From the IMG/VR virus record IMGVR_UViG_3300045988_024116, positions 1 through 51,545 of that record: DNA of 51,545 nt. One strand, 5' to 3'. Both the position numbers and the translations under genes were made by a program. This DNA comes from a virus. The notes below the pieces were generated by a model that ran no database searches, had not been told where the DNA came from, and worked only from the letters and a program-made list of their open reading frames with translations. This document shows positions 1 to 45,972 of this stretch, in pieces; within the stretch, counting starts at the first letter, position 1, and each line of letters starts with the position of its first letter.

Positions 1-55
1 CCCCGCTGTCAAGCGACCGACCGACCAACTCACCTGCCTACCTGCCACATCCTAC
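1..55. repeat. 55-bp exact direct repeat shared with the window end (51491..51545). Either a circular-assembly overlap or terminal redundancy.
   Basis: Bases 1-55 (ccccgctgtcaagcgaccgaccgaccaactcacctgcctacctgccacatcctac) are identical to 51491-51545. Confidence 0.95.
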
Positions 56-113
56 CTAGACGCATATACGCATACCCTGACCCAGCCCGGCCCCATAAAC
101 GTGACCCGCGTCA

Positions 114-134
114 CCCGAACCCCACCCCTAACCC
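114..134 (-). other. G-quadruplex-capable tract on the minus strand (i-motif-capable on the plus strand)
   Basis: The plus strand reads CCC-gaa-CCCC-a-CCCC-taa-CCC: four C-runs with loops of 1-3 nt. It contains the 12-mer acccctaaccca, which recurs at 725..736. Confidence 0.4.
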
Positions 135-366
135 AGGACCAAAACCCATAACAAAACTTAAGTCACCCTTACCAACCTTAGCCCATCCTATGTGCCTCAC
201 ATCACATATGTGCTACAAGTCACACAACCAGTAACCTGCAATCTACCAAGAAACATTCATCAACCAACACGAACTAGCATCAACTAGCAACACACTCAGC
301 ACGCAAAGTCTCTCACGAAAATACCCCCTAATTTTTCCTACAAACAAAGTAAATTACATACCTAGC

Positions 367-498
367 AATGTAATTTCACACATAATCTATATGTAGTACC
401 CAAAAATAATAGTAATGTAAAGTACATATAAACAAGAAGATTCCTATGATAATGTAATATATGTGTATAGTATGTATATATGTATTGTATGTATGTAA
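367..498. repeat. AT-rich island with iterated AATGTAA motifs; candidate origin or protein-binding array
   Basis: Exact aatgtaa at 367..373, 414..420 and 451..457, plus the variant tatgtaa at 492..498. The motifs sit in a gtatgta/tatata-rich stretch unlike the rest of the genome. Confidence 0.45.
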
Positions 499-520
499 TT
501 GTAAATCGTGTTACGTAGGC

Positions 521-599
521 GTCAGGTGCGCGAGGAATTGCATAATTATGCGTTCGAGTGCATAGTTATGCACTCCTTCCCCTCCTGAATTGTCCTGAC
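521..599. promoter_or_regulatory. Operator-like module: two palindromic boxes TGCATA(A/G)TTATGC bracketed by an inverted repeat
   Basis: tgcataattatgc (539..551; its core 540..551 is a perfect palindrome) and tgcatagttatgc (559..571) start 20 bp apart. They are flanked by gtcagg (521..526) and cctgac (594..599). Confidence 0.5.
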
Positions 600-707
600 A
601 TTTACGCTACGCTATCTCTCACGCCCTATCACCCCCTCCAGGCTACCCACACACCACTAGCACCCTAAAACACGCTCAAACGGCCTTCTAGACCCCTTAA
701 CGACCGT

Positions 708-735
708 CCCTAGCTATCACCCCTACCCCTAACCC
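708..735 (-). other. Second G-quadruplex-capable tract on the minus strand
   Basis: The plus strand reads CCC-n9-CCCC-ta-CCCC-taa-CCC and includes the same 12-mer acccctaaccca (725..736) seen at 124..135. Confidence 0.3.
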
Positions 736-908
736 ACCAATTCCCTCGCACATGCGCACGCGTATAACATACTTTCCCCATAACAACCACTCAAGCCATA
801 AAACTATCCACATGCTGAGATGTCTAGTTCTACCCATGCGTCTTGACACCGGCCCTGTCGCACGATAACCAAACCTCAGAATGTTACCAACGACACACCA
901 ACAAACTA

Positions 909-937
909 TTGACAACCAACAAACAACGTACTATTCA
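909..937 (+). promoter_or_regulatory. Candidate sigma70-type early promoter
   Basis: TTGACA (909..914), 17-nt spacer, TATTCA (932..937). Confidence 0.35.
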
Positions 938-1009
938 CGCGCGCGTTCCTTATTCCTACCCGCTAACACCCACACTTAAACAATGTGTCCCTAATCACAT
1001 GTTTTCATG

Positions 1010-1038
1010 TTGACAACGTACTAGCGCCGTACTAATCT
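1010..1038 (+). promoter_or_regulatory. Candidate sigma70-type early promoter
   Basis: TTGACA (1010..1015), 17-nt spacer, TAATCT (1033..1038). Confidence 0.5.
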
Positions 1039-1100
1039 TTAGTTATCGGCAAGCGAGAGACAACGCAAGCCCAATGAGATGCAAGTCACAAGGTTTCGAG

Positions 1101-1406: not shown

Positions 1407-1703
1407 ATGCGAGACACGACACATGCAACCGTGACCCAATGGACTGAATACCGTACCCCTAGCGGGCGTTGGTCCAAAGTGCGACACGATGAAACCGAGG
1501 AAGATTTTAAGCCTTACAACCTGCGCAATTTCTTTAGTGCAAAGTTTCCGGGTGAGCGGCGTGAATACGGATACTTTAGTCAGGGCTACCTACCCTACCG
1601 CGTGACTGTTCCTAGTCCCGATGGCCGCGAGCGCCACGTTTACAAGTTCGCGTATTACACAGGGCCGCGCGAAATTGTGAATTACACGTACGAAAACGAT
1701 TAG
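1407..1703 (+). CDS. Hypothetical early protein (98 aa)
   Basis: ORF track entry with an ATG start preceded by agaaagaaaacc. Tightly packed in the same orientation as its neighbours. Confidence 0.6.
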   Translation: MRDTTHATVTQWTEYRTPSGRWSKVRHDETEEDFKPYNLRNFFSAKFPGERREYGYFSQGYLPYRVTVPSPDGRERHVYKFAYYTGPREIVNYTYEND

Positions 1704-1712
1704 TTTTCAACT

Positions 1713-1763
1713 TCCCTGACTTAATGGTGAGTATAAAGCTGGGTTCAATTCCCAGTCAGGGAA
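1713..1763 (+). ncRNA. tRNA top-half mimic E1: acceptor stem, GG linker and T-arm, with no anticodon arm
   Basis: The 7-bp acceptor tccctga (1713..1719) pairs with tcaggga (1756..1762). T-stem ctggg/cccag with loop ttcaatt (1739..1755). The 19-nt linker contains GGT..GTA. A hairpin gcgac-acaa-gtcgc follows 4 nt downstream (1768..1781). Confidence 0.6.
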
Positions 1764-1813
1764 CGATGCGACACAAGTCGCACAAACAACAACAAACCGA
1801 AAGGTTAATTGAC

Positions 1814-2080: not shown

Positions 2081-2110
2081 GGGACGGCGCGGCCCAATAC
2101 GCGCCGTCCC
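2081..2110 (+). terminator. GC-rich hairpin; candidate terminator without a U-tract
   Basis: 11-bp perfect stem gggacggcgcg/cgcgccgtccc with an 8-nt loop, starting 10 nt after the stop codon at 2069..2071. Confidence 0.5.
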
Positions 2111-2417: not shown

Positions 2418-2446
2418 TTGACAACAACCAACCAACAACCTACACT
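2418..2446 (+). promoter_or_regulatory. Candidate sigma70-type promoter
   Basis: TTGACA (2418..2423), 17-nt spacer, TACACT (2441..2446). Confidence 0.55.
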
Positions 2447-2499: not shown

Positions 2500-2679
2500 A
2501 TGCGAATCAACAAGGACACTATGACCGTTATCAAGGCCGCTACCGCTGCCAAGATCACGTTTAGGAAGATGGGAGCCGACTACGGCGATAATCCCAGCGT
2601 GCTTGCCGCTATTGACGCGGTGGTTACTGCCCTTGATGGCCTGTCGGATGCAGTAGTCATGTCAGAAATTGAAGCCTAA
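2500..2679 (+). CDS. Small hypothetical protein (59 aa), below the ORF-track cutoff
   Basis: Read by hand: ATG 2500 preceded by agaaagagag; translation MRINKDTMTVIKAATAAKITFRKMGADYGDNPSVLAAIDAVVTALDGLSDAVVMSEIEA; stop TAA 2677..2679. Confidence 0.55.
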   Translation: MRINKDTMTVIKAATAAKITFRKMGADYGDNPSVLAAIDAVVTALDGLSDAVVMSEIEA

Positions 2680-2700
2680 CAAAACGTTCCTAATGGAACA

Positions 2701-2749
2701 TCCCTAGCCTGTCGGTAGGTAAATGCAGGTTCAACCCCTGCCTAGGGAG
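2701..2749 (+). ncRNA. tRNA top-half mimic E2, a paralogue of E1
   Basis: The 7-bp acceptor tccctag (2701..2707) pairs with ctaggga (2742..2748). T-stem gcagg/cctgc with loop ttcaacc (2725..2741). The 17-nt linker contains GGT..GTA. A hairpin gctaacca-agg-tggttagc follows 4 nt downstream (2754..2772). Confidence 0.6.
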
Positions 2750-2795
2750 CTGAGCTAACCAAGGTGGTTAGCGACAACAATCGAGAGGTTAAACC

Positions 2796-3260
2796 ATGTG
2801 CAATGAATATGCCTACAAGCTCGCTAAGGCACTCATTTACCCTGAGCTGACTGTAGAGTTTGCCGCTGACGTTATCAACGGCTACGTTTACGGTATCGAC
2901 ATTTGGGACGAAGTTTGCACTCTCACGGGCGGATGGTGCAATGATGCTAACGTCTTTGTCGCATGGGACAAGATGGGCCGTCCCGATGAATGGGAATACC
3001 TAGACACTGACTACGATATGGAACGGGACCCTGCCCGTAGGCGCGCAATGGTCGCTAATGCTCGCATCTCTGCAATGGCTGAGTGTGTCGCAGAAGCACT
3101 AGGTTATGTTGTTAACGATATTGTCGCTAACGAGGGTTGGAAATGTGTGCCCGTGGAAGATGTGAAACAGGATATGCACGGTATTGGTTGGCTTGAGTAC
3201 GGTTGCGCCATTTTGGACGTTTACACTGAGAGTTACCTGTTTAAGCCTAGCGGAAAGTGA
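2796..3260 (+). CDS. Hypothetical protein (154 aa)
   Basis: ORF track entry; ATG preceded by gagagg. Confidence 0.65.
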   Translation: MCNEYAYKLAKALIYPELTVEFAADVINGYVYGIDIWDEVCTLTGGWCNDANVFVAWDKMGRPDEWEYLDTDYDMERDPARRRAMVANARISAMAECVAEALGYVVNDIVANEGWKCVPVEDVKQDMHGIGWLEYGCAILDVYTESYLFKPSGK

Positions 3261-7055: not shown

Positions 7056-8471
7056 ATGAGCTTTGCACCGCGCCACTACCAAGAACGTGTACTGGAAGGT
7101 TTGGCGAACAGTAAAACGCCGTACACGGGCCTGGTAGGCGCGGGCCTTGGTACGGGCAAGACGGCAATGAGCGTGTGGAACGCCCTCAACGCTTTTGGTA
7201 GCGCTATCGGGGAACAGATTATCCTCATTGTCGCCCCTGTCCGTACCGAGTCCGGTTGGCGCTCGCACTGGAAGACGCTCGCCGGAATTGACATGCGCAC
7301 GCTGTCCGGTAAGAAAACTAAGACTGCCCTTGCAGTATGGGACGATCTGGAAAACCACGTGCCCGGCGTGTACTTCATTACGTGGGAGCTGATGCGCTCG
7401 CGGAATAAGGAAAAGCGCTGGGACGGACGGGCCAAAAAGTACGTCTACAAGTCCATGCCTAAGCCGTTCTACGGTGTAGAGTTTGGGATGGTTATTGCCG
7501 ATGAATGGCACCGTGCGTGCAACCACTCTAGCCTCAACTTTGACGTGGCACGACACATCAAGGCACAGTACCGCCTCGCCCTGAGTGCGACACCGGCAGG
7601 GAACAAGCCCTGCAACATTTGGGCGGCGCTGAAGTTCCTATGGCCTAACCACTACGGTGGTTACTGGGACTTTTGCGAAAAGTTCTTCAAGGTGGAAGTC
7701 AACCCGTGGTCGGCCTATGGCAAGGACTTTTCGGGAGAACGTTCCCCCGGCATGGTCCGTCGTGGAGCGCCCTCGTATCACGAGGTTTCACAGGCCGAGG
7801 CGAACCCTGAACTGCCCGGCGTGATTATTCACCGCGTAGAAGTCGAACTGTCTCGCACGCAGCGCAAGATGTATGACGATCTGGAACAGAAGGCACTCAC
7901 GTTCCTTGGAGAAAACCCGCTGGCACTGAGCATCCCGATGGAACTTGATCTACGTCTGCGACAGATGACGCTGGGAGTCCCCTCGTTCAACGAGGAAGGG
8001 ACTGTTGATTACAAGGAAGATTGTAAGTCGTCCAAGCTCGACGCAATGATGGATATTACTGCTGACCTGCCTGAAGATGAACCTGTCGTCGTGTGGGTAC
8101 ACTCGCAAAAGTTCATTAAGGCCGCGCTGTACCGTCTGAAGAAAGCCGGGATTAAGGCCATTGAAGTCTCTGGCAAGTCGCGCGGTGACTTCCATGCCAT
8201 GATTAACGGGGACGTGCGCGTCATTGTCGCGCAGCACGAGGCCATGTCTGAAGGCGTTGACGGACTTCAGCGAGTGTGTCATACTGAGATTTGGCTGAGC
8301 CAGTCAAACAGCCTTGTGATTAACGAACAGGCGACGGGACGACTCAACCGACAGGGCCAGACACAGCCTGTTAACCGTTTCCTGATTCAGGCGACCAATA
8401 CGGTGGATGACCGTGTGCTGGGACGCTTGCAGGAACGATTTGACAAGCTGAAGGCATCTGGACTAATCTAA
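7056..8471 (+). CDS. SNF2/DEAD-like superfamily 2 helicase
   Basis: Walker A GAGLGTGKT, motif II VIADEWHR, and a C-terminal helicase domain (VIVAQHEAMSEGVDGLQ, QATGRLNRQGQ). Confidence 0.8.
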   Translation: MSFAPRHYQERVLEGLANSKTPYTGLVGAGLGTGKTAMSVWNALNAFGSAIGEQIILIVAPVRTESGWRSHWKTLAGIDMRTLSGKKTKTALAVWDDLENHVPGVYFITWELMRSRNKEKRWDGRAKKYVYKSMPKPFYGVEFGMVIADEWHRACNHSSLNFDVARHIKAQYRLALSATPAGNKPCNIWAALKFLWPNHYGGYWDFCEKFFKVEVNPWSAYGKDFSGERSPGMVRRGAPSYHEVSQAEANPELPGVIIHRVEVELSRTQRKMYDDLEQKALTFLGENPLALSIPMELDLRLRQMTLGVPSFNEEGTVDYKEDCKSSKLDAMMDITADLPEDEPVVVWVHSQKFIKAALYRLKKAGIKAIEVSGKSRGDFHAMINGDVRVIVAQHEAMSEGVDGLQRVCHTEIWLSQSNSLVINEQATGRLNRQGQTQPVNRFLIQATNTVDDRVLGRLQERFDKLKASGLI

Positions 8472-13290: not shown

Positions 13291-15606
13291 ATGAACCTCA
13301 AAGAGTTCTTCCAAGCAGTCCTCCCAGACGGTGAAGGCTGGACACCAATCATCCTCAAGGGTCCGATGGGCGGTCTCACTAACTTCCGGTGGTTTGAGCT
13401 GCCAGCGCAGCTCGACAAGATGGTGGCATACGCCGAGGCTAACGCCGACTTGGACGTATACTACTCTCCCTTCCTTTACACCAAGCCCCCGGCCCTGTCG
13501 AACACGAGGCACGCAGCCAAAGACAACGTGACCAAGGCAGCGTGCGTCTGGGCAGACGGCGACGACTGCCCCATCGACAAACTGAAGGTCAAGCCCTCTA
13601 TCACCGTCCAGACCAGCGAGAAGCACTGGCAAGGATACTGGCTTCTTGAAGATGCCGGCGACCTGTCCAATGACATGCTCGAAGCACTCTCACGAGGACT
13701 CTACGAAGCACACAAGAACGACGGCATGGACCGAGGCTGGCCCCTGTCGAAGAAGCTCCGCGTCCCCTTCACGCACAACCTCAAGAAGGTGAAGCCCTGG
13801 GAGATTACTCTCGCTACTAACGACGAGCCTATCACCGCAGCTGAGTTCGCGGCTGAGTACCCACCTGTCGAACGTATGGGCATTGAGGAAGAAGACTTCC
13901 CCACTGACATCCCCAGCATGTTTGAGGTGTTGGGCATGGTGAATCGTAGCTACATCACGGACCTGGCTACGGACGACTCTTTCAACACCGAAGAGGACCG
14001 TAGCTCGAAGATGTACCATCTTCAGTGTGCTCTCTGGGAAGAAGGTTGTTCAATTGTTGAAGCATTTGCCGTTGTGCGTGCCACTGAGTTCAACAAGTTT
14101 GAACAAGACGGACGCGGCGACGGCTACCTATGGAAACAGATCAACCGCGACTACGCACGTTGGAAGGCAGAGCACAACGGCCCCACGGAAAACGATCTCG
14201 AAGCGACAACCCGTATCGGCTCGTCCTACCTGCTGAGTGAATCGCGTGAGCTGTCGTTGCAGGATGTTGACTTCCTACACGGGGACGAGGAAGAACCGAT
14301 GGGCCTTTTTGTTGACCAGTTCGCAGCATGGGCATCAACCAAGTCAGCAATGGCACCTAAGCAATTCCACTACGCGGGCGCTCTCGCTATCTTGTCGTCC
14401 ATGTTCGCGAAGTACGCCTTCCTCCCTACCAACGTGCAGAAGATGCCACTGAATCTGTACTTCCTGGTTCTGGGACGTACTACACAGTCCCGAAAGTCCA
14501 CGTCACTTCGCCTCGCTGAGTCCATGATGCGAGACGTGGCTGTCGGCATCGGCAGGGGGCCAGATGCGTTCATTGCACCGGAAGACTCAACAGGTGAAGC
14601 GCTGTCTACATACCTGCGTACCAAGCCGAAAGAGTCTGGTCTGTTCGCAATTGATGAGGTCCAAGACTTCTTTGCACACGCCGCCCAGAAGGGTAGCTAC
14701 ATGGCCTCGATGATGCCGTTCCTCACCAAGTCTTACGACGGCTACATCCCAGCTGTCGCACGTAAAGACAAGGGCGGCAAGGTTGCTTACCAGACTGCGA
14801 CCCCGTACTACATGACGTTCTACGGGACAGGTATTCTTGACCAGGCCGCGAAGCACCTGACGACCGAGAAGGTGGAGTCTGGCTTCACGCCCCGTTGTCT
14901 TGTCGTTATTGATGACCGAGACAAGTACATCACCTCGTCTCAGGATGTGAAGCTCGTGCAAGTGAGCGCATCAACAGGCAAGATTGAGGACAAGCAGCGT
15001 GACTTCATGCTGTCGAACCTTATCAAGTCTGTGACCAAGTTCGATGTGGCTTTCAACGCTCGCCGTGCGCAACGCATGGAGAATGAGGAAGTCCGTATCC
15101 CTGTCGAGTTTGAGCCGGGTGTGTTCGAGCGGTGGATTGAGTTCTCGGAAGAGGCAAAGGTACTGGCTGAACGACATATGCTGAACAGTCGTGAGTTGTT
15201 TCCCGGCACTGAGCGTATGACGTTCTCTGTGCTCCGCATTTCTGCGCTGCTCGCTATGTATAACGGGCCGACGACAAAGGGCACCGTCGTTGTCACAATG
15301 CGGGAAATGCTCAAGGCTATCTCGCTTGCGTCCATCTGGCTGTCTTCTAACGAGGTGTTCATCCACCACGTGAAGAACAGCAACTTCAGCAACAAGGTGG
15401 ACAAGCTCATTAACTTCGTTGCGCGCACTGACAATGGTATGGTTTCGATTCCGAAACTCATGTTGAAGTTCCAGTCTGAAATCAGCGGTATGCGTGAACT
15501 GAAGGAAATCATCACATATGCCCAGGCACGTGGAGTTATCCAAGAAGTCGTGAAGGGGAAAACAAATAACGAACGATTCATTAAGTACACGGGAGGGCAA
15601 GTATGA
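13291..15606 (+). CDS. Bifunctional primase-polymerase with a C-terminal D5/DUF3987-like helicase
   Basis: The track ORF is 13240..15606. ATG 13291 follows aaaggagag. AEP-like motifs DVYYSP, VWADGDD and SEKHWQGYW; P-loop GRTTQSRKST. Confidence 0.7.
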   Translation: MNLKEFFQAVLPDGEGWTPIILKGPMGGLTNFRWFELPAQLDKMVAYAEANADLDVYYSPFLYTKPPALSNTRHAAKDNVTKAACVWADGDDCPIDKLKVKPSITVQTSEKHWQGYWLLEDAGDLSNDMLEALSRGLYEAHKNDGMDRGWPLSKKLRVPFTHNLKKVKPWEITLATNDEPITAAEFAAEYPPVERMGIEEEDFPTDIPSMFEVLGMVNRSYITDLATDDSFNTEEDRSSKMYHLQCALWEEGCSIVEAFAVVRATEFNKFEQDGRGDGYLWKQINRDYARWKAEHNGPTENDLEATTRIGSSYLLSESRELSLQDVDFLHGDEEEPMGLFVDQFAAWASTKSAMAPKQFHYAGALAILSSMFAKYAFLPTNVQKMPLNLYFLVLGRTTQSRKSTSLRLAESMMRDVAVGIGRGPDAFIAPEDSTGEALSTYLRTKPKESGLFAIDEVQDFFAHAAQKGSYMASMMPFLTKSYDGYIPAVARKDKGGKVAYQTATPYYMTFYGTGILDQAAKHLTTEKVESGFTPRCLVVIDDRDKYITSSQDVKLVQVSASTGKIEDKQRDFMLSNLIKSVTKFDVAFNARRAQRMENEEVRIPVEFEPGVFERWIEFSEEAKVLAERHMLNSRELFPGTERMTFSVLRISALLAMYNGPTTKGTVVVTMREMLKAISLASIWLSSNEVFIHHVKNSNFSNKVDKLINFVARTDNGMVSIPKLMLKFQSEISGMRELKEIITYAQARGVIQEVVKGKTNNERFIKYTGGQV

Positions 15607-44930: not shown

Positions 44931-45317
44931 TTAGACCCCCTTCAGCGCCCAGTCGAGTTCTTCATTGAGTTCTTCATCATTCCGGCACCATTGGGCTGCC
45001 TTAAGGACATCCTGTAGAAACTCCTCCCAGAAGCGCTTATCCGAAAGCCAATCATATTCCTTATTTTCTTCAATAAGCTCTGTCGGCTCCTTGAACTCAG
45101 CGTCATGCAACCAAGTAGTGAACACAGGAAGATTGATGTCAATGGTCGTAAGGTGCCCCCAGTCGGACCACCAGCCCGCGATAGTGTAGCTTTCACCGAA
45201 ACTGGTGGTAAAGGTGTACTCAGGGTGGTCGAGCATACCTGTATACATACACATATCGCACGAACCGTCAGTGTCTTCGTAAGTGTTTGAGTCGAAGTTA
45301 GTAAGTCGTAACTTCAT
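44931..45317 (-). CDS. Hypothetical protein (128 aa)
   Basis: ORF track entry; ATG preceded by aaaggagaaac. Confidence 0.6.
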   Translation of the reverse strand: MKLRLTNFDSNTYEDTDGSCDMCMYTGMLDHPEYTFTTSFGESYTIAGWWSDWGHLTTIDINLPVFTTWLHDAEFKEPTELIEENKEYDWLSDKRFWEEFLQDVLKAAQWCRNDEELNEELDWALKGV

Positions 45318-45336
45318 TTTGTTTCTCCTTTCTGTC

Positions 45337-45409
45337 GTGCTGCTACAGGACTCGAACCTGCAACCTCTGAGTCTTACTCAGTGCTCTCACCAATTTGAGC
45401 TAAGCAGCT
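45337..45409 (-). ncRNA. Aberrant tRNA-like gene (anticodon arm 2 nt short)
   Basis: Canonical D-arm (gctc-aaattggtga-gagc) and T-arm (gcagg-ttcgagt-cctgt). The anticodon arm ctgag-taaga-ctcag gives a 5-nt loop, or a 4-bp stem with loop gtaagac. There is an A1:A72 mismatch. Confidence 0.5.
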
Positions 45410-45438
45410 TGTTACCTGACCAGGGCAACCCAGCCGTT

Positions 45439-45489
45439 CGATGAGGGTGTCTTGGTCATGACACTTTGTGCTATCGAGCAAACCTCATC
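45439..45489 (-). ncRNA. Candidate 51-nt minihelix RNA in the tRNA cluster (weak)
   Basis: 7-bp terminal stem gatgagg/cctcatc, an internal hairpin tgct-cgat-agca, and the hairpin gtgtc-atgaccaa-gacac abutting the 3' strand. No canonical T-loop. Confidence 0.25.
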
Positions 45490-45497
45490 GTCAAGCG

Positions 45498-45568
45498 CTC
45501 CCAGACTAGGACTCGAACCTAGTCCGACAGGGCCAAAACCTGCCGTGCTGCCATTACACTATCTGGGA
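45498..45568 (-). tRNA. tRNA-Gln (anticodon TTG)
   Basis: Hand-folded cloverleaf: acceptor tcccaga/tctggga, anticodon stem gcagg/cctgt, loop ttTTGgc, T-arm ctagg-ttcgagt-cctag. Confidence 0.85.
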
Positions 45569-45575
45569 TTATGTG

Positions 45576-45647
45576 CTTCAGGGCCGGGAATCGAACCCGA
45601 GCCTCCGGGGCCTATACCCCAGTATGCTGCCACTACACCAGCCTGAA
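45576..45647 (-). ncRNA. Aberrant tRNA-like gene (anticodon ATA by canonical numbering, with stem mismatches)
   Basis: The D-arm gtgt-agtggca-gcat is paralogous to that of tRNA-Gln. T-arm tcggg-ttcgatt-cccgg. C7:C66 and U28:C42 mismatches; anticodon loop gtATAgg. Confidence 0.45.
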
Positions 45648-45651
45648 GCTG

Positions 45652-45723
45652 TCGGAATGGTGAGACTCGAACTCACGGCCCCCTGGTCCCAAACCAGGTG
45701 CGCTACCACTGCGCTACATTCCG
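45652..45723 (-). tRNA. tRNA-Pro (anticodon TGG)
   Basis: Hand-folded cloverleaf: acceptor cggaatg/cattccg, D-arm gcgc-agtggta-gcgc, anticodon loop ttTGGga, T-arm gtgag-ttcgagt-ctcac. Confidence 0.9.
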
Positions 45724-45887
45724 TTAGAAGGGGTGCTGTTGACTGACGAAACAAAAACCATCACACAAAAATTGTCAGCCCTAGGGTGCTACCCCGCACG
45801 TGACCCCCGTCACGGCAACCGGCACGTCCGCCTGATCAGGGCGGCAGGCGGCTATGGCCTAATCATCCAGCATCGTCCGGTGCTTGG

Positions 45888-45972
45888 TGGTCCCCTCGGT
45901 GAGAATCGAACTCACACTCCTTTCGGAACTCGATTTTGAGTCGAGCGCGTCTGCCTGTTCCGCCACAAGGGG
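45888..45972 (-). tRNA. tRNA-Leu (anticodon CAA), type II, with encoded CCA
   Basis: Acceptor ccccttg/cgagggg, D region tggcggaacaggcagacgcgc, anticodon loop ctCAAaa, long variable arm ttccgaaaggagt, T-arm gtgag-ttcgatt-ctcac, 3' a-cca. Confidence 0.85.

What the first reader, a model, noticed from the sequence alone, without database searches (positions are those of the whole stretch)
2701..2772. Second copy (E2) of the tRNA top-half mimic, with compensatory base changes relative to E1
**Structure.** E2 lies after the small ORF 2500..2679 and has the same architecture as E1.
- Acceptor: 7 bp (tccctag / ctaggga).
- Linker: 17 nt (cctgtcGGTagGTAaat).
- T-arm: gcagg-TTCAACC-cctgc.
- One unpaired base, a 4-nt spacer and a hairpin (gctacca-type stem gctaacca-agg-tggttagc).

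**Comparison with E1.**
- Both helices differ in sequence but stay perfectly paired. Acceptor positions 6-7 change GA/TC to AG/CT, and the T-stem changes from ctggg/cccag to gcagg/cctgc.
- The T-loop TTCAA and the linker core C-n5-GGT-rr-GTA are conserved.
- Covariation with conserved loops is the classic signature of a selected RNA fold rather than a chance hairpin.
- The acceptor sequence (UCCCUxx) and the AATGG linker motif of E1 resemble the phage's own tRNA-Gln (tcccaga..gtgtAATGGca). This suggests descent from a tRNA gene by loss of the anticodon arm.
Basis: seen in the sequence. Interest (0 to 1): 0.85.

Follow-up and report, generated by a model that had tools for sequence, protein, structure and literature searches.

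The report
Anticodon-less tRNA mimic between phage genes
A phage of oral actinobacteria carries, between its early genes, small conserved RNA structures that copy only the top half of a tRNA, most likely so that the host's tRNA-trimming enzymes cut the phage's long early messages into separate capped pieces.

Summary
E2 is in the sequence as described. It has a 7-bp acceptor-like stem (2701-2707/2742-2748) and a canonical T-arm (2725-2741). There is no anticodon arm, and a hairpin follows at 2754-2772.

It is not chance. Watson-Crick-only matches to this layout number 2 in the window (E1 and E2) and 0 in 300 shuffles.

In 63 related phage contigs a sequence-only profile finds 105 copies, and 104 are perfectly paired. 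13 of 16 pairs show compensatory changes.

- The "linker" is a covarying 4-bp mini D-hairpin whose loop carries the GG of the tRNA elbow.
- A second hairpin (2686-2699) ends 1 nt before the element.

The copies lie between ORFs on the gene strand, a median of 12 nt after a stop codon and about 49 nt before the next start. Real tRNAs, or in one relative a promoter, occupy equivalent slots.

Best reading (about 0.5): a phage "t-element" excised by host RNase P and RNase Z, which punctuates the early polycistronic mRNA, with the flanking hairpins capping the new ends. Cleavage is inferred, not shown.

Rfam has no such family, and none of seven literature searches found one described for phages. 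Unrelated phage contigs carry minimal versions.

The parts
2701..2748 (+). E2 core: anticodon-arm-less tRNA-like element. It comprises a 7-bp acceptor stem (2701-2707/2742-2748), a mini D-hairpin (2708-2719), a 5-nt connector (2720-2724) and a T-arm (2725-2741).
   Evidence: Sequence. Architecture scan. Family model at 64.4 bits. Covariation across 59 homologues.
2708..2719 (+). Mini D-arm analogue: a 4-bp stem CCUG/UAGG with the loop UCGG. The loop GG is the likely counterpart of G18-G19 of the tRNA elbow.
   Evidence: Predicted in the minimum-free-energy fold. Alignment columns 8-11/16-19 show CG/UA/AU and UA/CG/UG exchanges. GG is present in 58 of 59 copies.
2725..2741 (+). T-arm: a 5-bp stem GCAGG/CCUGC with the 7-nt loop UUCAACC, matching the motif GGTTCRANYCC.
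   Evidence: U54, U55 and A58 are invariant, C56 is present in 58 of 59, and the closing G-C pair in 58 of 59.
2749..2753 (+). Discriminator-like G (2749) and the 4-nt trailer CUGA. No CCA is encoded. The inferred RNase Z cut lies after 2749.
   Evidence: Position 73 is A in 91 and G in 13 of 105 copies, position 74 is C in all 105, and position 75 is never C.
2686..2699 (+). Upstream hairpin GUUCC-UAAU-GGAAC, ending 1 nt before the element. The inferred RNase P cut lies at 2700|2701. Proposed role: 3' cap of the upstream mRNA, or a folding insulator.
   Evidence: A hairpin of at least 5 bp ends 0-5 nt before the element in 52 of 86 distinct flanks, against 22% at random positions. There are 23 different stem sequences.
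2754..2772 (+). Downstream hairpin GCUAACCA-AGG-UGGUUAGC, 4 nt after the discriminator and with no U-run. Proposed role: 5' cap of the downstream mRNA.
   Evidence: A hairpin of at least 5 bp starts 3-8 nt after the acceptor end in 53 of 78 distinct flanks, against 26% at random. There are 26 different stems. It is not listed as terminator-like.
2500..2679 (+). Upstream early ORF (59 aa). Its stop codon lies 21 nt before E2.
   Evidence: No Pfam or PHROG match.
2783..3260 (+). Ribosome-binding site GAGAGG (2783-2788) and downstream early ORF (ATG 2796, 154 aa). Only 23 nt separate the hairpin from the ATG, which leaves no room for a promoter.
2418..2446 (+). Promoter-like site TTGACA-17-TACACT, which would drive the transcript containing ORF 2500-2679, E2 and ORF 2796-3260.
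   Evidence: 10 of 12 consensus matches.
1692..1782 (+). E1, the sister copy. It has an upstream hairpin (1692-1708) that overlaps the stop codon of ORF 1407-1703, a core (1713-1762), a discriminator A (1763) and a downstream hairpin (1767-1782).
   Evidence: Family model at 65.8 bits.
45497..45568 (-). The phage's own tRNA-Gln(UUG), the closest full tRNA to the family and its likely ancestor type. It encodes no CCA.
45317..45409 (-). A real tRNA-Leu(AAG) followed directly by A-CGACAGAAAGGAG..ATG of ORF 45317..44931. This is a genuine tRNA in the same kind of slot as the mimics.

Best explanation
E2, like E1, is a phage "t-element": a tRNA gene reduced to the parts that tRNA end-processing enzymes read. 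Those parts are the 12-bp acceptor/T-arm stack, the T-loop, and a GG loop that can form the elbow.

**Proposed mechanism**
1. E2 is transcribed inside the early polycistronic mRNA, probably from the promoter-like site at 2418-2446.
2. Host RNase P is proposed to cut at 2700|2701.
3. Host RNase Z is proposed to cut after the discriminator at 2749. No CCA is encoded, as in four of the phage's five tRNAs.
4. Excision separates the mRNA of ORF 2500-2679 from that of ORF 2796-3260.
5. The upstream fragment then ends in the hairpin 2686-2699.
6. The downstream fragment then starts with CUGA followed by the hairpin 2754-2772. These are positions where stem-loops are known to slow exonucleases and 5'-end-dependent decay.
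7. The released mini-tRNA of about 49 nt is either a by-product or gains CCA.

**Shown here**
- The fold and its selection.
- The strand.
- The intergenic placement.
- The enrichment of flanking hairpins.
- Interchange of the element with real tRNAs or a promoter in relatives.

**Inferred**
- Co-transcription with the flanking genes.
- The two cleavages.
- The stabilising effect of the hairpins.
For: **The fold is selected**
- The layout occurs 111 times on the gene strand. It occurs 12 times on the other strand, all at one conserved coding site.
- 104 of 105 profile hits that were blind to structure are perfectly paired.
- 13 of 16 pairs show double changes, and the score beats the shuffled and slid controls.
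- 13 G-U cells and no A-C cells occur in the two main helices. This is weak support for the + strand, because the selection filter allowed G-U but excluded A-C.

**What is conserved is what RNase P, RNase Z and the CCA-adding enzyme read**
- The acceptor/T stack, UUCRA, the G-C closing pair and the loop GG are all kept.
- PMC4810234 describes elbow recognition by these enzymes and the use of RNase Z for CCA-less precursors.
- The middle part is free to vary. It is a long variable hairpin in the E0 class. In other phage lineages it is only a 10-13-nt single strand containing GG.

**Position**
- The median is 12 nt after a stop codon and about 49 nt before the next start. 101 of 105 copies have a downstream ORF with a ribosome-binding site.
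- There are 1-4 copies per early region, including the long E0 class.
- In the window there is no room for a promoter between E2 and the ATG at 2796.

**Flanking hairpins**
- They are enriched about 2.5-fold on both sides and have many unrelated stem sequences.

**Equivalent slots hold real tRNAs or a promoter**
- The window's tRNA-Leu sits directly before ORF 45317.
- L048 has a tRNA-Pro before an early ORF.
- L005 has a TTGACA-17-TAGACT promoter where E1 sits in its relatives.

**Other points**
- C74 is invariant and CCA is never encoded.
- Precedent exists. Plant-mitochondrial t-elements with the same GGTTCRANYCC motif define mRNA ends through RNase P and RNase Z (PMC1920247). t-elements also release RNAs in Haloferax (PMC6546412).
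Against: - No RNA-end or cleavage data exist for this phage.
- The upstream hairpin ends only 1 nt before the proposed RNase P site, and the -1 base is mostly A rather than U. Both may be suboptimal for bacterial RNase P (my own knowledge).
- Many flanking hairpins are short and weak (5 bp). About a third of the copies lack one or the other.
- The mini D-hairpin has a 4-nt loop. Whether a true elbow forms is unknown.
- The first four acceptor pairs (UCCC/GGGA) and A73 are conserved in sequence while the rest of the helices covary freely. RNase P and RNase Z do not need that, so an additional sequence-specific partner or plain ancestry may be involved.
- The copies are phylogenetically related, so counts of cells overstate the number of independent events.
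Confidence: 0.5

Rival explanations
1. Trans-acting mini-tRNA. The element is excised and receives CCA. The free RNA of about 50 nt is the functional product. It could be a decoy or sponge for host factors that read the tRNA acceptor end or elbow. Candidates are acceptor-end-modifying or -cleaving immune toxins, the CCA-adding enzyme, EF-Tu, or the GatCAB amidotransferase that reads U1-A72 of tRNA-Gln and tRNA-Asn.
For: - The sequence of the first four acceptor pairs (U1-A72, C2-G71, C3-G70, C4-G69) and A73 is conserved while the other pairs covary. This resembles an identity set.
- The top half is nearest to tRNA-Gln.
- Elbow-reading proteins include GatCAB and the CCA-adding enzyme (PMC4810234).
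- There are several copies per genome, placed in the earliest operons.
Against: - It does not explain the tight placement between a stop codon and the next ribosome-binding site, or the two flanking hairpins.
- It does not explain replacement of the element by a promoter in L005.
- Acceptor sequences do vary: ACCC..GGGU and UCCA..UGGA in the cluster, and UGCC..GGCA and GGCC..GGCU in other lineages.
- No tRNA-related phage enzyme was found among the 39 ORFs scanned.
- This reading is not exclusive of processing, because excision is needed first.
Confidence: 0.2
2. Cis-acting structure that is not cleaved. The tRNA-like fold and its neighbouring hairpins would act within the intact mRNA. Possible roles are a decay barrier, a spacer that uncouples translation of neighbouring ORFs, or a ribosome- or factor-binding site near the stop codon.
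For: - The element lies within about 5-20 nt of the upstream stop codon.
- It forms a compact, stable three-hairpin block between ORFs.
- There is a weak resemblance to the viral 3' tRNA-like element family RF00233 (16.6 bits).
Against: - Any stable hairpin would serve as a barrier. That does not explain strict retention of UUCRA, the G-C closing pair, the loop GG, the 7+5-bp geometry, C74 and the avoidance of CCA.
- A structure this tRNA-like would be hard to shield from RNase P in vivo (inference).
- The RF00233 score is far below that family's 40-bit threshold.
Confidence: 0.12
3. Decaying tRNA pseudogene, or a DNA-level feature with no RNA function. Examples would be a recombination hotspot at module borders, an att-like tRNA fragment, or a protein-binding inverted repeat.
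For: - The elements sit at junctions where the downstream genes differ between relatives.
- A few copies are visibly decayed: L022 at 1803, L045 at 5862, L047 at 3988 and L052 at 6254.
- The family resembles tRNA-Gln.
Against: - Compensatory changes occur at 13 of 16 pairs, and 104 of 105 copies are perfectly paired. A neutral remnant would not keep this.
- Strong strand bias: 111 hits on the gene strand against 12 on the other, all 12 at one conserved coding site.
- Both acceptor strands are present, unlike att-site tRNA fragments.
- No integrase was found among the ORFs scanned.
- Independent lineages keep the same minimal architecture with different sequences.
Confidence: 0.04
4. The region is translated, as an N-terminal extension or a small upstream ORF, and the apparent structure is a by-product of coding constraints.
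For: E1 lies in a stop-free frame continuous with the downstream ORF (ATG 1724). Many copies have ATG within ACGATG.
Against: - No ORF of 35 aa or more covers E2.
- In the E1 class, element lengths are 47-50 nt. The distance to the downstream ATG takes values 0, 1 and 2 mod 3, and the frame is closed in some copies.
- The substitution pattern is pair-compensating.
Confidence: 0.01

Closest known systems
t-elements of plant mitochondria (PMC1920247), also used in Haloferax (PMC6546412)
   Same: - Non-canonical tRNA-like folds built around an acceptor stem and a GGTTCRANYCC T-arm.
- Embedded in longer transcripts next to coding regions.
- Their borders define mRNA 3' and 5' ends through RNase P and RNase Z.
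- The excised element can persist and receive non-encoded C or CCA.
   Different: - Here the host is a bacteriophage of Actinomycetota.
- The elements are a homogeneous, multi-copy, strongly covarying family of 39-73 nt, with a defined mini D-hairpin or GG linker and no anticodon arm.
- They are bracketed by dedicated hairpins.
- Cleavage has not been demonstrated.
Mitochondrial tRNA punctuation, and bacterial operons that mix tRNAs and mRNAs (for example the tufB operon; my own knowledge)
   Same: Excision of a tRNA-shaped unit by RNase P and RNase Z separates neighbouring RNAs. The window itself has a real tRNA-Leu directly upstream of an ORF.
   Different: Those units are working tRNAs. E1 and E2 cannot decode, so processing or another top-half function must be what is selected.
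mascRNA of MALAT1 and the MEN-beta tRNA-like element (mentioned in PMC4810234; details are my own knowledge)
   Same: A tRNA mimic inside a long transcript recruits RNase P to make the upstream RNA's 3' end. That end is then protected by an adjacent structure. RNase Z and CCA addition release a small tRNA-like RNA.
   Different: Those are eukaryotic nuclear long non-coding RNAs and keep a cloverleaf with an anticodon-like arm. Protection there comes from a triple helix, not a simple hairpin.
RNase III sites between phage T7 early genes (my own knowledge)
   Same: Intergenic structured RNA in a phage early polycistronic transcript. A host endonuclease cuts it to give discrete mRNAs that end in stabilising stems.
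   Different: A different enzyme and a different fold: a long irregular duplex, with no tRNA mimicry.
Canonical tRNA (Rfam RF00005), specifically the phage's tRNA-Gln
   Same: - Acceptor stem, discriminator, T-arm and loop GG.
- E1 and E3 share 25 and 27 of 32 top-half positions with tRNA-Gln.
- No CCA is encoded, and C74 is shared.
   Different: - There is no anticodon arm and no 8-9 linker, and the D-loop has 4 nt.
- ARAGORN does not call it, and Rfam scores it at 15.5 bits against a 29-bit threshold.
tRNA-like domain of tmRNA, and plant-virus 3' tRNA-like structures (RF00233)
   Same: Mimicry of the acceptor/T-arm half and the elbow without a normal anticodon arm.
   Different: - tmRNA needs G3:U70 and an internal mRNA-like domain. 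Here pair 3:70 is C:G and ARAGORN finds no tmRNA.
- Viral tRNA-like structures are 3'-terminal, pseudoknotted and end in CCA. Here the location is internal, the acceptor helix is plain, and the score is 16.6 bits against 40.

Membership tests
Canonical tRNA (RF00005 / ARAGORN) | 7-bp acceptor stem followed by an unpaired discriminator | tested here: met
   2701-2707 pairs with 2742-2748 at 7/7 Watson-Crick, and G2749 is unpaired.
Canonical tRNA (RF00005 / ARAGORN) | 5-bp T-stem with a 7-nt loop UUCRANN and a G53:C61 closing pair | tested here: met
   The arm lies at 2725-2741. Across 59 copies U54, U55 and A58 are invariant, and C56 and the G-C closing pair are each present in 58 of 59.
Canonical tRNA (RF00005 / ARAGORN) | D-arm: a 3-4-bp stem with a 7-11-nt loop carrying G18 G19, preceded by nucleotides 8-9 | tested here: inconclusive
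   A 4-bp stem with a 4-nt loop UCGG follows directly after the acceptor stem. GG is kept in 58 of 59 copies, but the loop is too small and there is no 8-9 linker.
Canonical tRNA (RF00005 / ARAGORN) | Anticodon arm (5-bp stem, 7-nt loop) | tested here: not met
   Only 5 nt (2720-2724) lie between the mini D-hairpin and the T-stem. ARAGORN makes no call. The Rfam alignment deletes both middle arms and scores 15.5 bits against a 29-bit gathering score.
t-element (tRNA-like mRNA-processing signal) | Non-canonical tRNA-like fold containing the GGTTCRANYCC T-arm motif and an acceptor-like stem (definition from PMC1920247) | tested here: met
   GGTTCAACCCC at 2728-2738 lies inside a closed acceptor/T-arm fold.
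t-element (tRNA-like mRNA-processing signal) | Lies within a longer transcript, next to coding regions, in the sense orientation | tested here: met
   E2 starts 21 nt after the stop codon of ORF 2500-2679 and ends 47 nt before the ATG at 2796. It is on the same strand, and there is no promoter-like site between them. In relatives the median distances are 12 and 49 nt. Co-transcription itself is inferred.
t-element (tRNA-like mRNA-processing signal) | Element borders coincide with RNA termini made by RNase P and RNase Z | not testable with these tools
   No transcript-end data are available. This needs RACE, end-mapping sequencing, or in vitro cleavage.
tmRNA tRNA-like domain | G3:U70 alanine identity pair and an internal tag-encoding domain between the acceptor strands | tested here: not met
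   Pair 3:70 is C:G in 59 of 59 copies. Only 34 nt lie between the acceptor strands. ARAGORN reports no tmRNA.
Plant-virus 3' tRNA-like structure (RF00233) | 3'-terminal position, pseudoknotted acceptor arm, and a score at or above 40 bits | tested here: not met
   The location is internal and intergenic, the acceptor helix is plain, and the score is 16.6 bits with E = 0.098 in a 101-nt search.
Intrinsic terminator (for hairpin 2754-2772) | G+C-rich stem followed by a U-run | tested here: not met
   The hairpin is followed by gacaacaatcg. It is not listed among terminator-like sites. The next ATG is 23 nt away with no promoter in between.

The most novel reading that the evidence does not exclude
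The phage uses the host's tRNA maturation line twice. RNase P and RNase Z cut its early mRNAs at dedicated anticodon-less mini-tRNAs. The released, CCA-tailed mini-tRNAs, which keep a tRNA-Gln-like U1-A72/C2-G71/C3-G70 acceptor end, then act in trans. They would soak up a host factor that reads the acceptor end or elbow. Candidates are an acceptor-end-targeting immune toxin, or the GatCAB/CCA-adding machinery. The result would be protection of phage translation or a slowing of the host.
Probability: 0.12. Interest if true: 0.85.

Novelty: new variant of a known kind. Interest (0 to 1): 0.68.

Why it matters
If the cleavages are confirmed, this would be a phage counterpart of mitochondrial tRNA punctuation. 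It would be a compact, portable RNA module (hairpin, mini-tRNA, hairpin) that lets a virus cut and cap its own messages using only essential host enzymes that the host cannot easily withdraw.

- It would add a class of structured RNA to phage early-gene control. This class is absent from Rfam and invisible to tRNA finders.
- It would show what happens to a tRNA gene when decoding is no longer selected but processing is. It therefore gives a natural minimal substrate for RNase P, RNase Z and the CCA-adding enzyme in Actinomycetota.
- The module resembles synthetic tRNA-spacer arrays used to release guide RNAs and could be reused in the same way.
- Minimal versions of 39-44 nt occur in unrelated phage contigs, so the phenomenon may be widespread.

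Tried and rejected
**Searches that led nowhere**
- DNA similarity to 50,697 GenBank phage records gave no match, either near (8 kb query) or distant (4 kb query). Relatives had to be fetched through the SNF2 helicase protein.
- Rfam at gathering thresholds gives only four tRNAs.
- Permissive Rfam scans give only sub-threshold hits. These are a minus-strand Plastid-ycf2 hit (23.4 and 15.4 bits against a 65.7-bit threshold), tRNA at 15.5 bits and Tymo_tRNA-like at 16.6 bits.
- ARAGORN does not call E1, E2 or the E0 class.
- Pfam and PHROGs on the ten early ORFs around the elements find nothing.
- Pfam on 29 further ORFs finds replication, capsid and lysis domains. It finds no tRNA-processing enzyme, RNA ligase or integrase.
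- A scan of 185,579 species-representative genomes with the family pattern gave only two contigs, both whole-phage contigs binned into MAGs. This sequence subclass is therefore not a bacterial chromosomal element.
- Seven literature searches found t-elements in plant mitochondria and Haloferax, but no description of such elements in phages. A catalogue of 10,006 candidate viral structured RNAs mentions only Aragorn-overlapping tRNA-like motifs.

**Readings considered and rejected**
- Single-sequence folding energy as evidence: for E2, z is only -1.4 to -1.8.
- Minus-strand RNA: it has no T-loop motif, and the G-U pairs would become C-A mismatches.
- Terminator reading of the hairpins.
- Translation.
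- The match at 13733-13782(-): a chance hit inside a conserved coding region.
Full report
**1. The observation**

The stretch 2701-2772 reads tccctag / cctgtcggtaggtaaat / gcagg-ttcaacc-cctgc / ctaggga / g / ctga / gctaacca-agg-tggttagc.
- RNAfold returns the same fold. In addition it pairs CCUG (2708-2711) with UAGG (2716-2719) around a UCGG loop.
- E1 at 1713-1762 has the same layout, with different acceptor pairs 6-7 and a different T-stem.
- A scan for this architecture required a 7-bp stem, a linker of 8-30 nt, a 5-bp stem, a TTCRANN loop, and the 3' acceptor strand immediately after. In the window it finds E1, E2 and one G-U-containing site inside a coding region (13733-13782, minus strand).
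- Dinucleotide shuffles give 0.043 matches per window. With Watson-Crick pairs only, the count is 2 against 0 in 300 shuffles.
- Folding energy alone would not have flagged E2 (z = -1.4 to -1.8).
- ARAGORN and Rfam call five and four real tRNAs respectively at 45337-45972, but not E1 or E2.

**2. Relatives and covariation**

- The window is a roughly 51.5-kb tailed-phage genome with no DNA-level relative among GenBank phages.
- The SNF2 helicase (7056-8471) retrieved 63 related IMG/VR contigs at 71-98% protein identity.
- In these contigs plus the window, the strict layout occurs 111 times on the gene strand. It occurs 12 times on the other strand, all at the one conserved coding site.
- The 59 distinct sequences align without difficulty (A1).
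- 13 of 16 pairs show changes on both sides. The covariation score is 0.63, against 0.20 for shuffled partners and 0.07-0.18 for slid partners. Acceptor pairs 5-7 and T-stem pairs 1-3 each use three to five pair types.
- That set had been selected for pairing, so I repeated the collection with a sequence-only nhmmer profile. Of 105 full-length hits, 104 are perfectly paired at 7/7 and 5/5. The remaining one has a single T-stem mismatch. Four further copies are visibly decayed.
- The two main helices contain 13 G-U cells and no A-C cells, and the T-loop motif exists only on the + strand. The A-C absence is partly a result of the selection filter, so strand bias and the T-loop carry most of this argument.
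- A covariance model built from A1 finds exactly two copies in the window, at 65.8 and 64.4 bits. The next best matches are the T-arms of the real tRNAs.

**3. What is and is not conserved**

- Invariant or nearly so: U54, U55, C56, R57 and A58; the G-C pair closing the T-loop; GG in the small hairpin loop (58 of 59); and the first four acceptor pairs UCCC/GGGA.
- Position 73 is A in 91 of 105 copies and G in 13. Position 74 is always C, and position 75 is never C, so CCA is never encoded.
- Four of the phage's five tRNAs also lack an encoded CCA, and all five have C74.
- The middle of the element is the free part. It is a 4-bp hairpin with a 4-nt loop in E1 and E2. It is a 4-bp hairpin with the loop GUUUGG in a third class. 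It is a long variable hairpin in a fourth, longer class (E0, 55-73 nt).
- With a small search space, the Rfam tRNA model aligns E2 end to end with the D and anticodon arms deleted. The score is 15.5 bits, below the 29-bit threshold.
- E2 is therefore a tRNA top half, not a tRNA.

**4. Origin**

Over acceptor, T-arm and discriminator, the nearest of the phage's tRNAs is tRNA-Gln.
- E1 matches it at 25 of 32 positions.
- The third class matches at 27 of 32.
- E2 matches at 19 of 32.
- E2 also shares CCTGTCGG with the 3' anticodon-stem and variable region of tRNA-Gln. An 8-mer match of this kind is expected by chance at roughly 0.04-0.2 (my estimate).

Descent from a tRNA-Gln-type gene is likely for the family. 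It is only weakly visible in E2 itself.

**5. Context**

- E2 starts 21 nt after the stop codon of ORF 2500-2679. It ends 47 nt before the ATG of ORF 2796-3260, which has its own GAGAGG ribosome-binding site.
- A promoter-like site, TTGACA-17-TACACT, lies at 2418-2446. None lies between E2 and the next gene, and the hairpin 2754-2772 has no U-run. Read-through transcription across E2 is therefore required for the downstream gene. This is an inference.
- Across relatives, the elements lie a median of 12 nt after a stop codon and about 49 nt before the next start. There are one to four per early region, counting the E0 class.
- A hairpin of at least 5 bp ends 0-5 nt (most often 1 nt) before the element in 52 of 86 distinct flanks, against 22% at random positions.
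- A hairpin of at least 5 bp starts 3-8 nt (most often 4 nt) after the acceptor end in 53 of 78 distinct flanks, against 26% at random.
- There are 23 and 26 different stem sequences respectively.
- In the window these hairpins are 2686-2699 and 2754-2772 for E2, and 1692-1708 and 1767-1782 for E1. The upstream E1 hairpin overlaps the stop codon of ORF 1407-1703.
- The translation alternative fails. No ORF covers E2. In the E1 class, the distance to the downstream ATG takes all three values mod 3.

**6. Interchangeability**

Three observations link the mimics to RNA-end formation.
- The real tRNA-Leu(AAG) at 45337-45409 is followed directly by A-CGACAGAAAGGAG...ATG of ORF 45317..44931. This is the same trailer and layout as the mimics.
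- In the distant relative L048, a real tRNA-Pro sits in an early intergenic slot just before a ribosome-binding site and an ATG.
- In L005, the slot that holds E1 in its relatives holds a copy of the TTGACA-17-TAGACT promoter, in front of the same gene.

A promoter, a tRNA and a tRNA mimic have one thing in common: each defines a new 5' end for the downstream message.

**7. Mechanism proposed**

- RNase P recognises the acceptor/T stack and the elbow.
- RNase Z processes CCA-less precursors, also by way of the elbow.
- The CCA-adding enzyme measures from the elbow (PMC4810234).
- The element keeps precisely these determinants and discards the rest.

I therefore propose that host RNase P cuts at 2700|2701 and RNase Z cuts after 2749. 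That would leave the upstream mRNA ending in a hairpin, and the downstream mRNA starting with 4 nt followed by a hairpin. Terminal stem-loops in those positions are known to retard 3' exonucleases and 5'-end-dependent decay (established knowledge, not tested here).

The closest described systems are these.
- Plant-mitochondrial t-elements. They were found through the same GGTTCRANYCC motif, and their borders coincide with mRNA ends (PMC1920247).
- The t-elements used to release RNAs in Haloferax (PMC6546412).
- The MALAT1/mascRNA arrangement and the T7 RNase III sites, which are functional analogues (my own knowledge).

**8. What does not fit neatly**

- The sequence of the first four acceptor pairs and A73 is conserved, which RNase P and RNase Z do not require.
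- The base at -1 is mostly A.
- The upstream hairpin abuts the proposed RNase P site.
- Many of the hairpins are weak, and about a third of copies lack one.

These points leave room for a second role for the excised mini-tRNA (decoy or sponge), or for a non-cleaved cis role. I give the processing model about 0.5, the trans-acting model about 0.2, a non-cleaved cis element about 0.12, and the remainder to minor rivals.

**9. Breadth and novelty**

- A pattern anchored on the T-arm, GGGA and ACGA, together with the family model, found the same architecture in contigs that share fewer than 1% of 15-mers with the cluster.
- The L089/L096/L109/L124/L142/L146 group has the full hairpin-element-hairpin layout.
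- Elements were also found in L131 and in L140/L148 (three copies).
- Minimal forms exist in which the middle is only a 10-13-nt strand containing GG. These are L103 (three copies, 41-44 nt), L094/L144 (two copies), L113/L134, and a 197-kb contig, L119 (two copies, 39 nt).
- In 185,579 species-representative genomes, the family pattern hits only two whole-phage contigs inside MAGs.
- Rfam has no such family. None of the seven literature searches returned a phage description. A catalogue of candidate viral structured RNAs mentions only tRNA-overlapping motifs.
- I class it as a new variant of a known kind: t-elements, now in phages, in a stripped-down multi-copy form with flanking hairpins.

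**10. Host**

- The endolysin carries an amidase domain and choline-binding repeats. It is nearest to that of an Eggerthella phage.
- The terminase is nearest to those of Arthrobacter phages, at 42% identity.
- One ORF belongs to a family named after a Mycobacterium phage protein (PF25682).
- The two MAG bins holding whole-phage contigs are labelled Atopobium and Actinomyces.
- Contig L058 joins DNA of 62-72% G+C directly to phage sequence at window position 2189. That DNA carries an LAxTG-type surface-protein gene and a CRISPR array of about 14 repeats. This implies a spacer against this phage.

The host is therefore probably an oral high-G+C actinobacterium. This fits a setting in which tRNA genes commonly lack CCA and RNase Z is used (my own knowledge).

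Noticed in passing
L058 1-2900 (contig IMGVR_UViG_3300045988_055784); junction corresponds to window 2189: The contig is a host/phage chimera. It begins with DNA of 62-72% G+C that carries an LAxTG-anchored surface-protein ORF (18..1055). A CRISPR array of about 14 repeats (GGCTCATCCCCGCTCACGCGGGGAAAAC, 2068-2886) follows. Directly after the last repeat the sequence continues as phage, inside the homologue of ORF 2135-2413. This implies a host spacer against this phage and points to a high-G+C actinobacterial host.
   Followed up: partly
L005 355-440: In this close relative, the slot that holds E1 elsewhere contains a duplicated promoter (TTGACA-17-TAGACT, identical to L005 1-55), directly upstream of the same MAHTFK gene. 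There is no tRNA-like element.
   Followed up: partly
L048 3573-3644: A full tRNA-Pro(CGG) called by ARAGORN sits in an early intergenic slot of a distant relative. It is followed by A-CGGAGAAAAACAACC...GGAAGG...ATG, the same layout as the mimics.
   Followed up: partly
L034-L063 group, for example L042 3719-3783; also L010 3906-3964 and L023 2790-2844: A longer class, E0 (55-73 nt), has a GRGCCGY/RCGGCTC acceptor, a long variable hairpin in place of the D-hairpin, and the same T-arm. It is followed by ACGAUG, a hairpin and then a TTGACA promoter. It is absent from the window.
   Followed up: partly
L103 433-473, 2756-2797, 4123-4166; L094 871-930, 4015-4056; L119 7782-7820, 9690-9728; L148 329-380, 2211-2257, 2921-2972: Unrelated phage contigs, including one of 197 kb, carry several copies each of even smaller anticodon-less elements (39-44 nt). 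Their middle part is only a GG-containing strand of 10-13 nt. Each copy lies between ORFs.
   Followed up: partly
window 523-587: A long imperfect hairpin, gcataattatgc-gttcgagt-gcatagttatgc (11 of 12 bp), lies in the non-coding left end. Its only database echo is a sub-threshold miRNA-family hit (17.5 bits).
   Followed up: no
window 330-510: An A+T-rich non-coding stretch is full of short repeats (atgtaat, tgtatgta) between the genome end and the first promoters. It could be an origin, a packaging site or a regulatory region.
   Followed up: no
window 2081-2110: A perfect 11-bp G+C-rich hairpin, GGGACGGCGCG-gcccaata-CGCGCCGTCCC, starts 10 nt after the stop codon of ORF 1814-2071 and has no T-run. 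It is a candidate U-tract-less terminator or mRNA stabiliser within the first early operon.
   Followed up: no
window 45575-45647 (-): ARAGORN calls a tRNA-Tyr with the unusual anticodon AUA (A34) and a C-C mismatch at pair 7:66. Rfam does not report it at the gathering threshold. It may be a non-standard or decaying tRNA.
   Followed up: no
window 13733-13782 (-): A top-half-like match (7-bp and 5-bp stems with G-U pairs, loop TTCGACA) lies antisense inside the 788-aa ORF. It is conserved in 11 relatives as coding sequence and is judged to be chance.
   Followed up: yes
window 45337-45972 (-) and all 105 elements: The base after the discriminator is C in every tRNA-like element and in all five phage tRNAs. 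CGA is the commonest trailer. Only tRNA-Leu(CAA) encodes CCA. This may reflect a retained C74 contact with RNase P RNA.
   Followed up: partly
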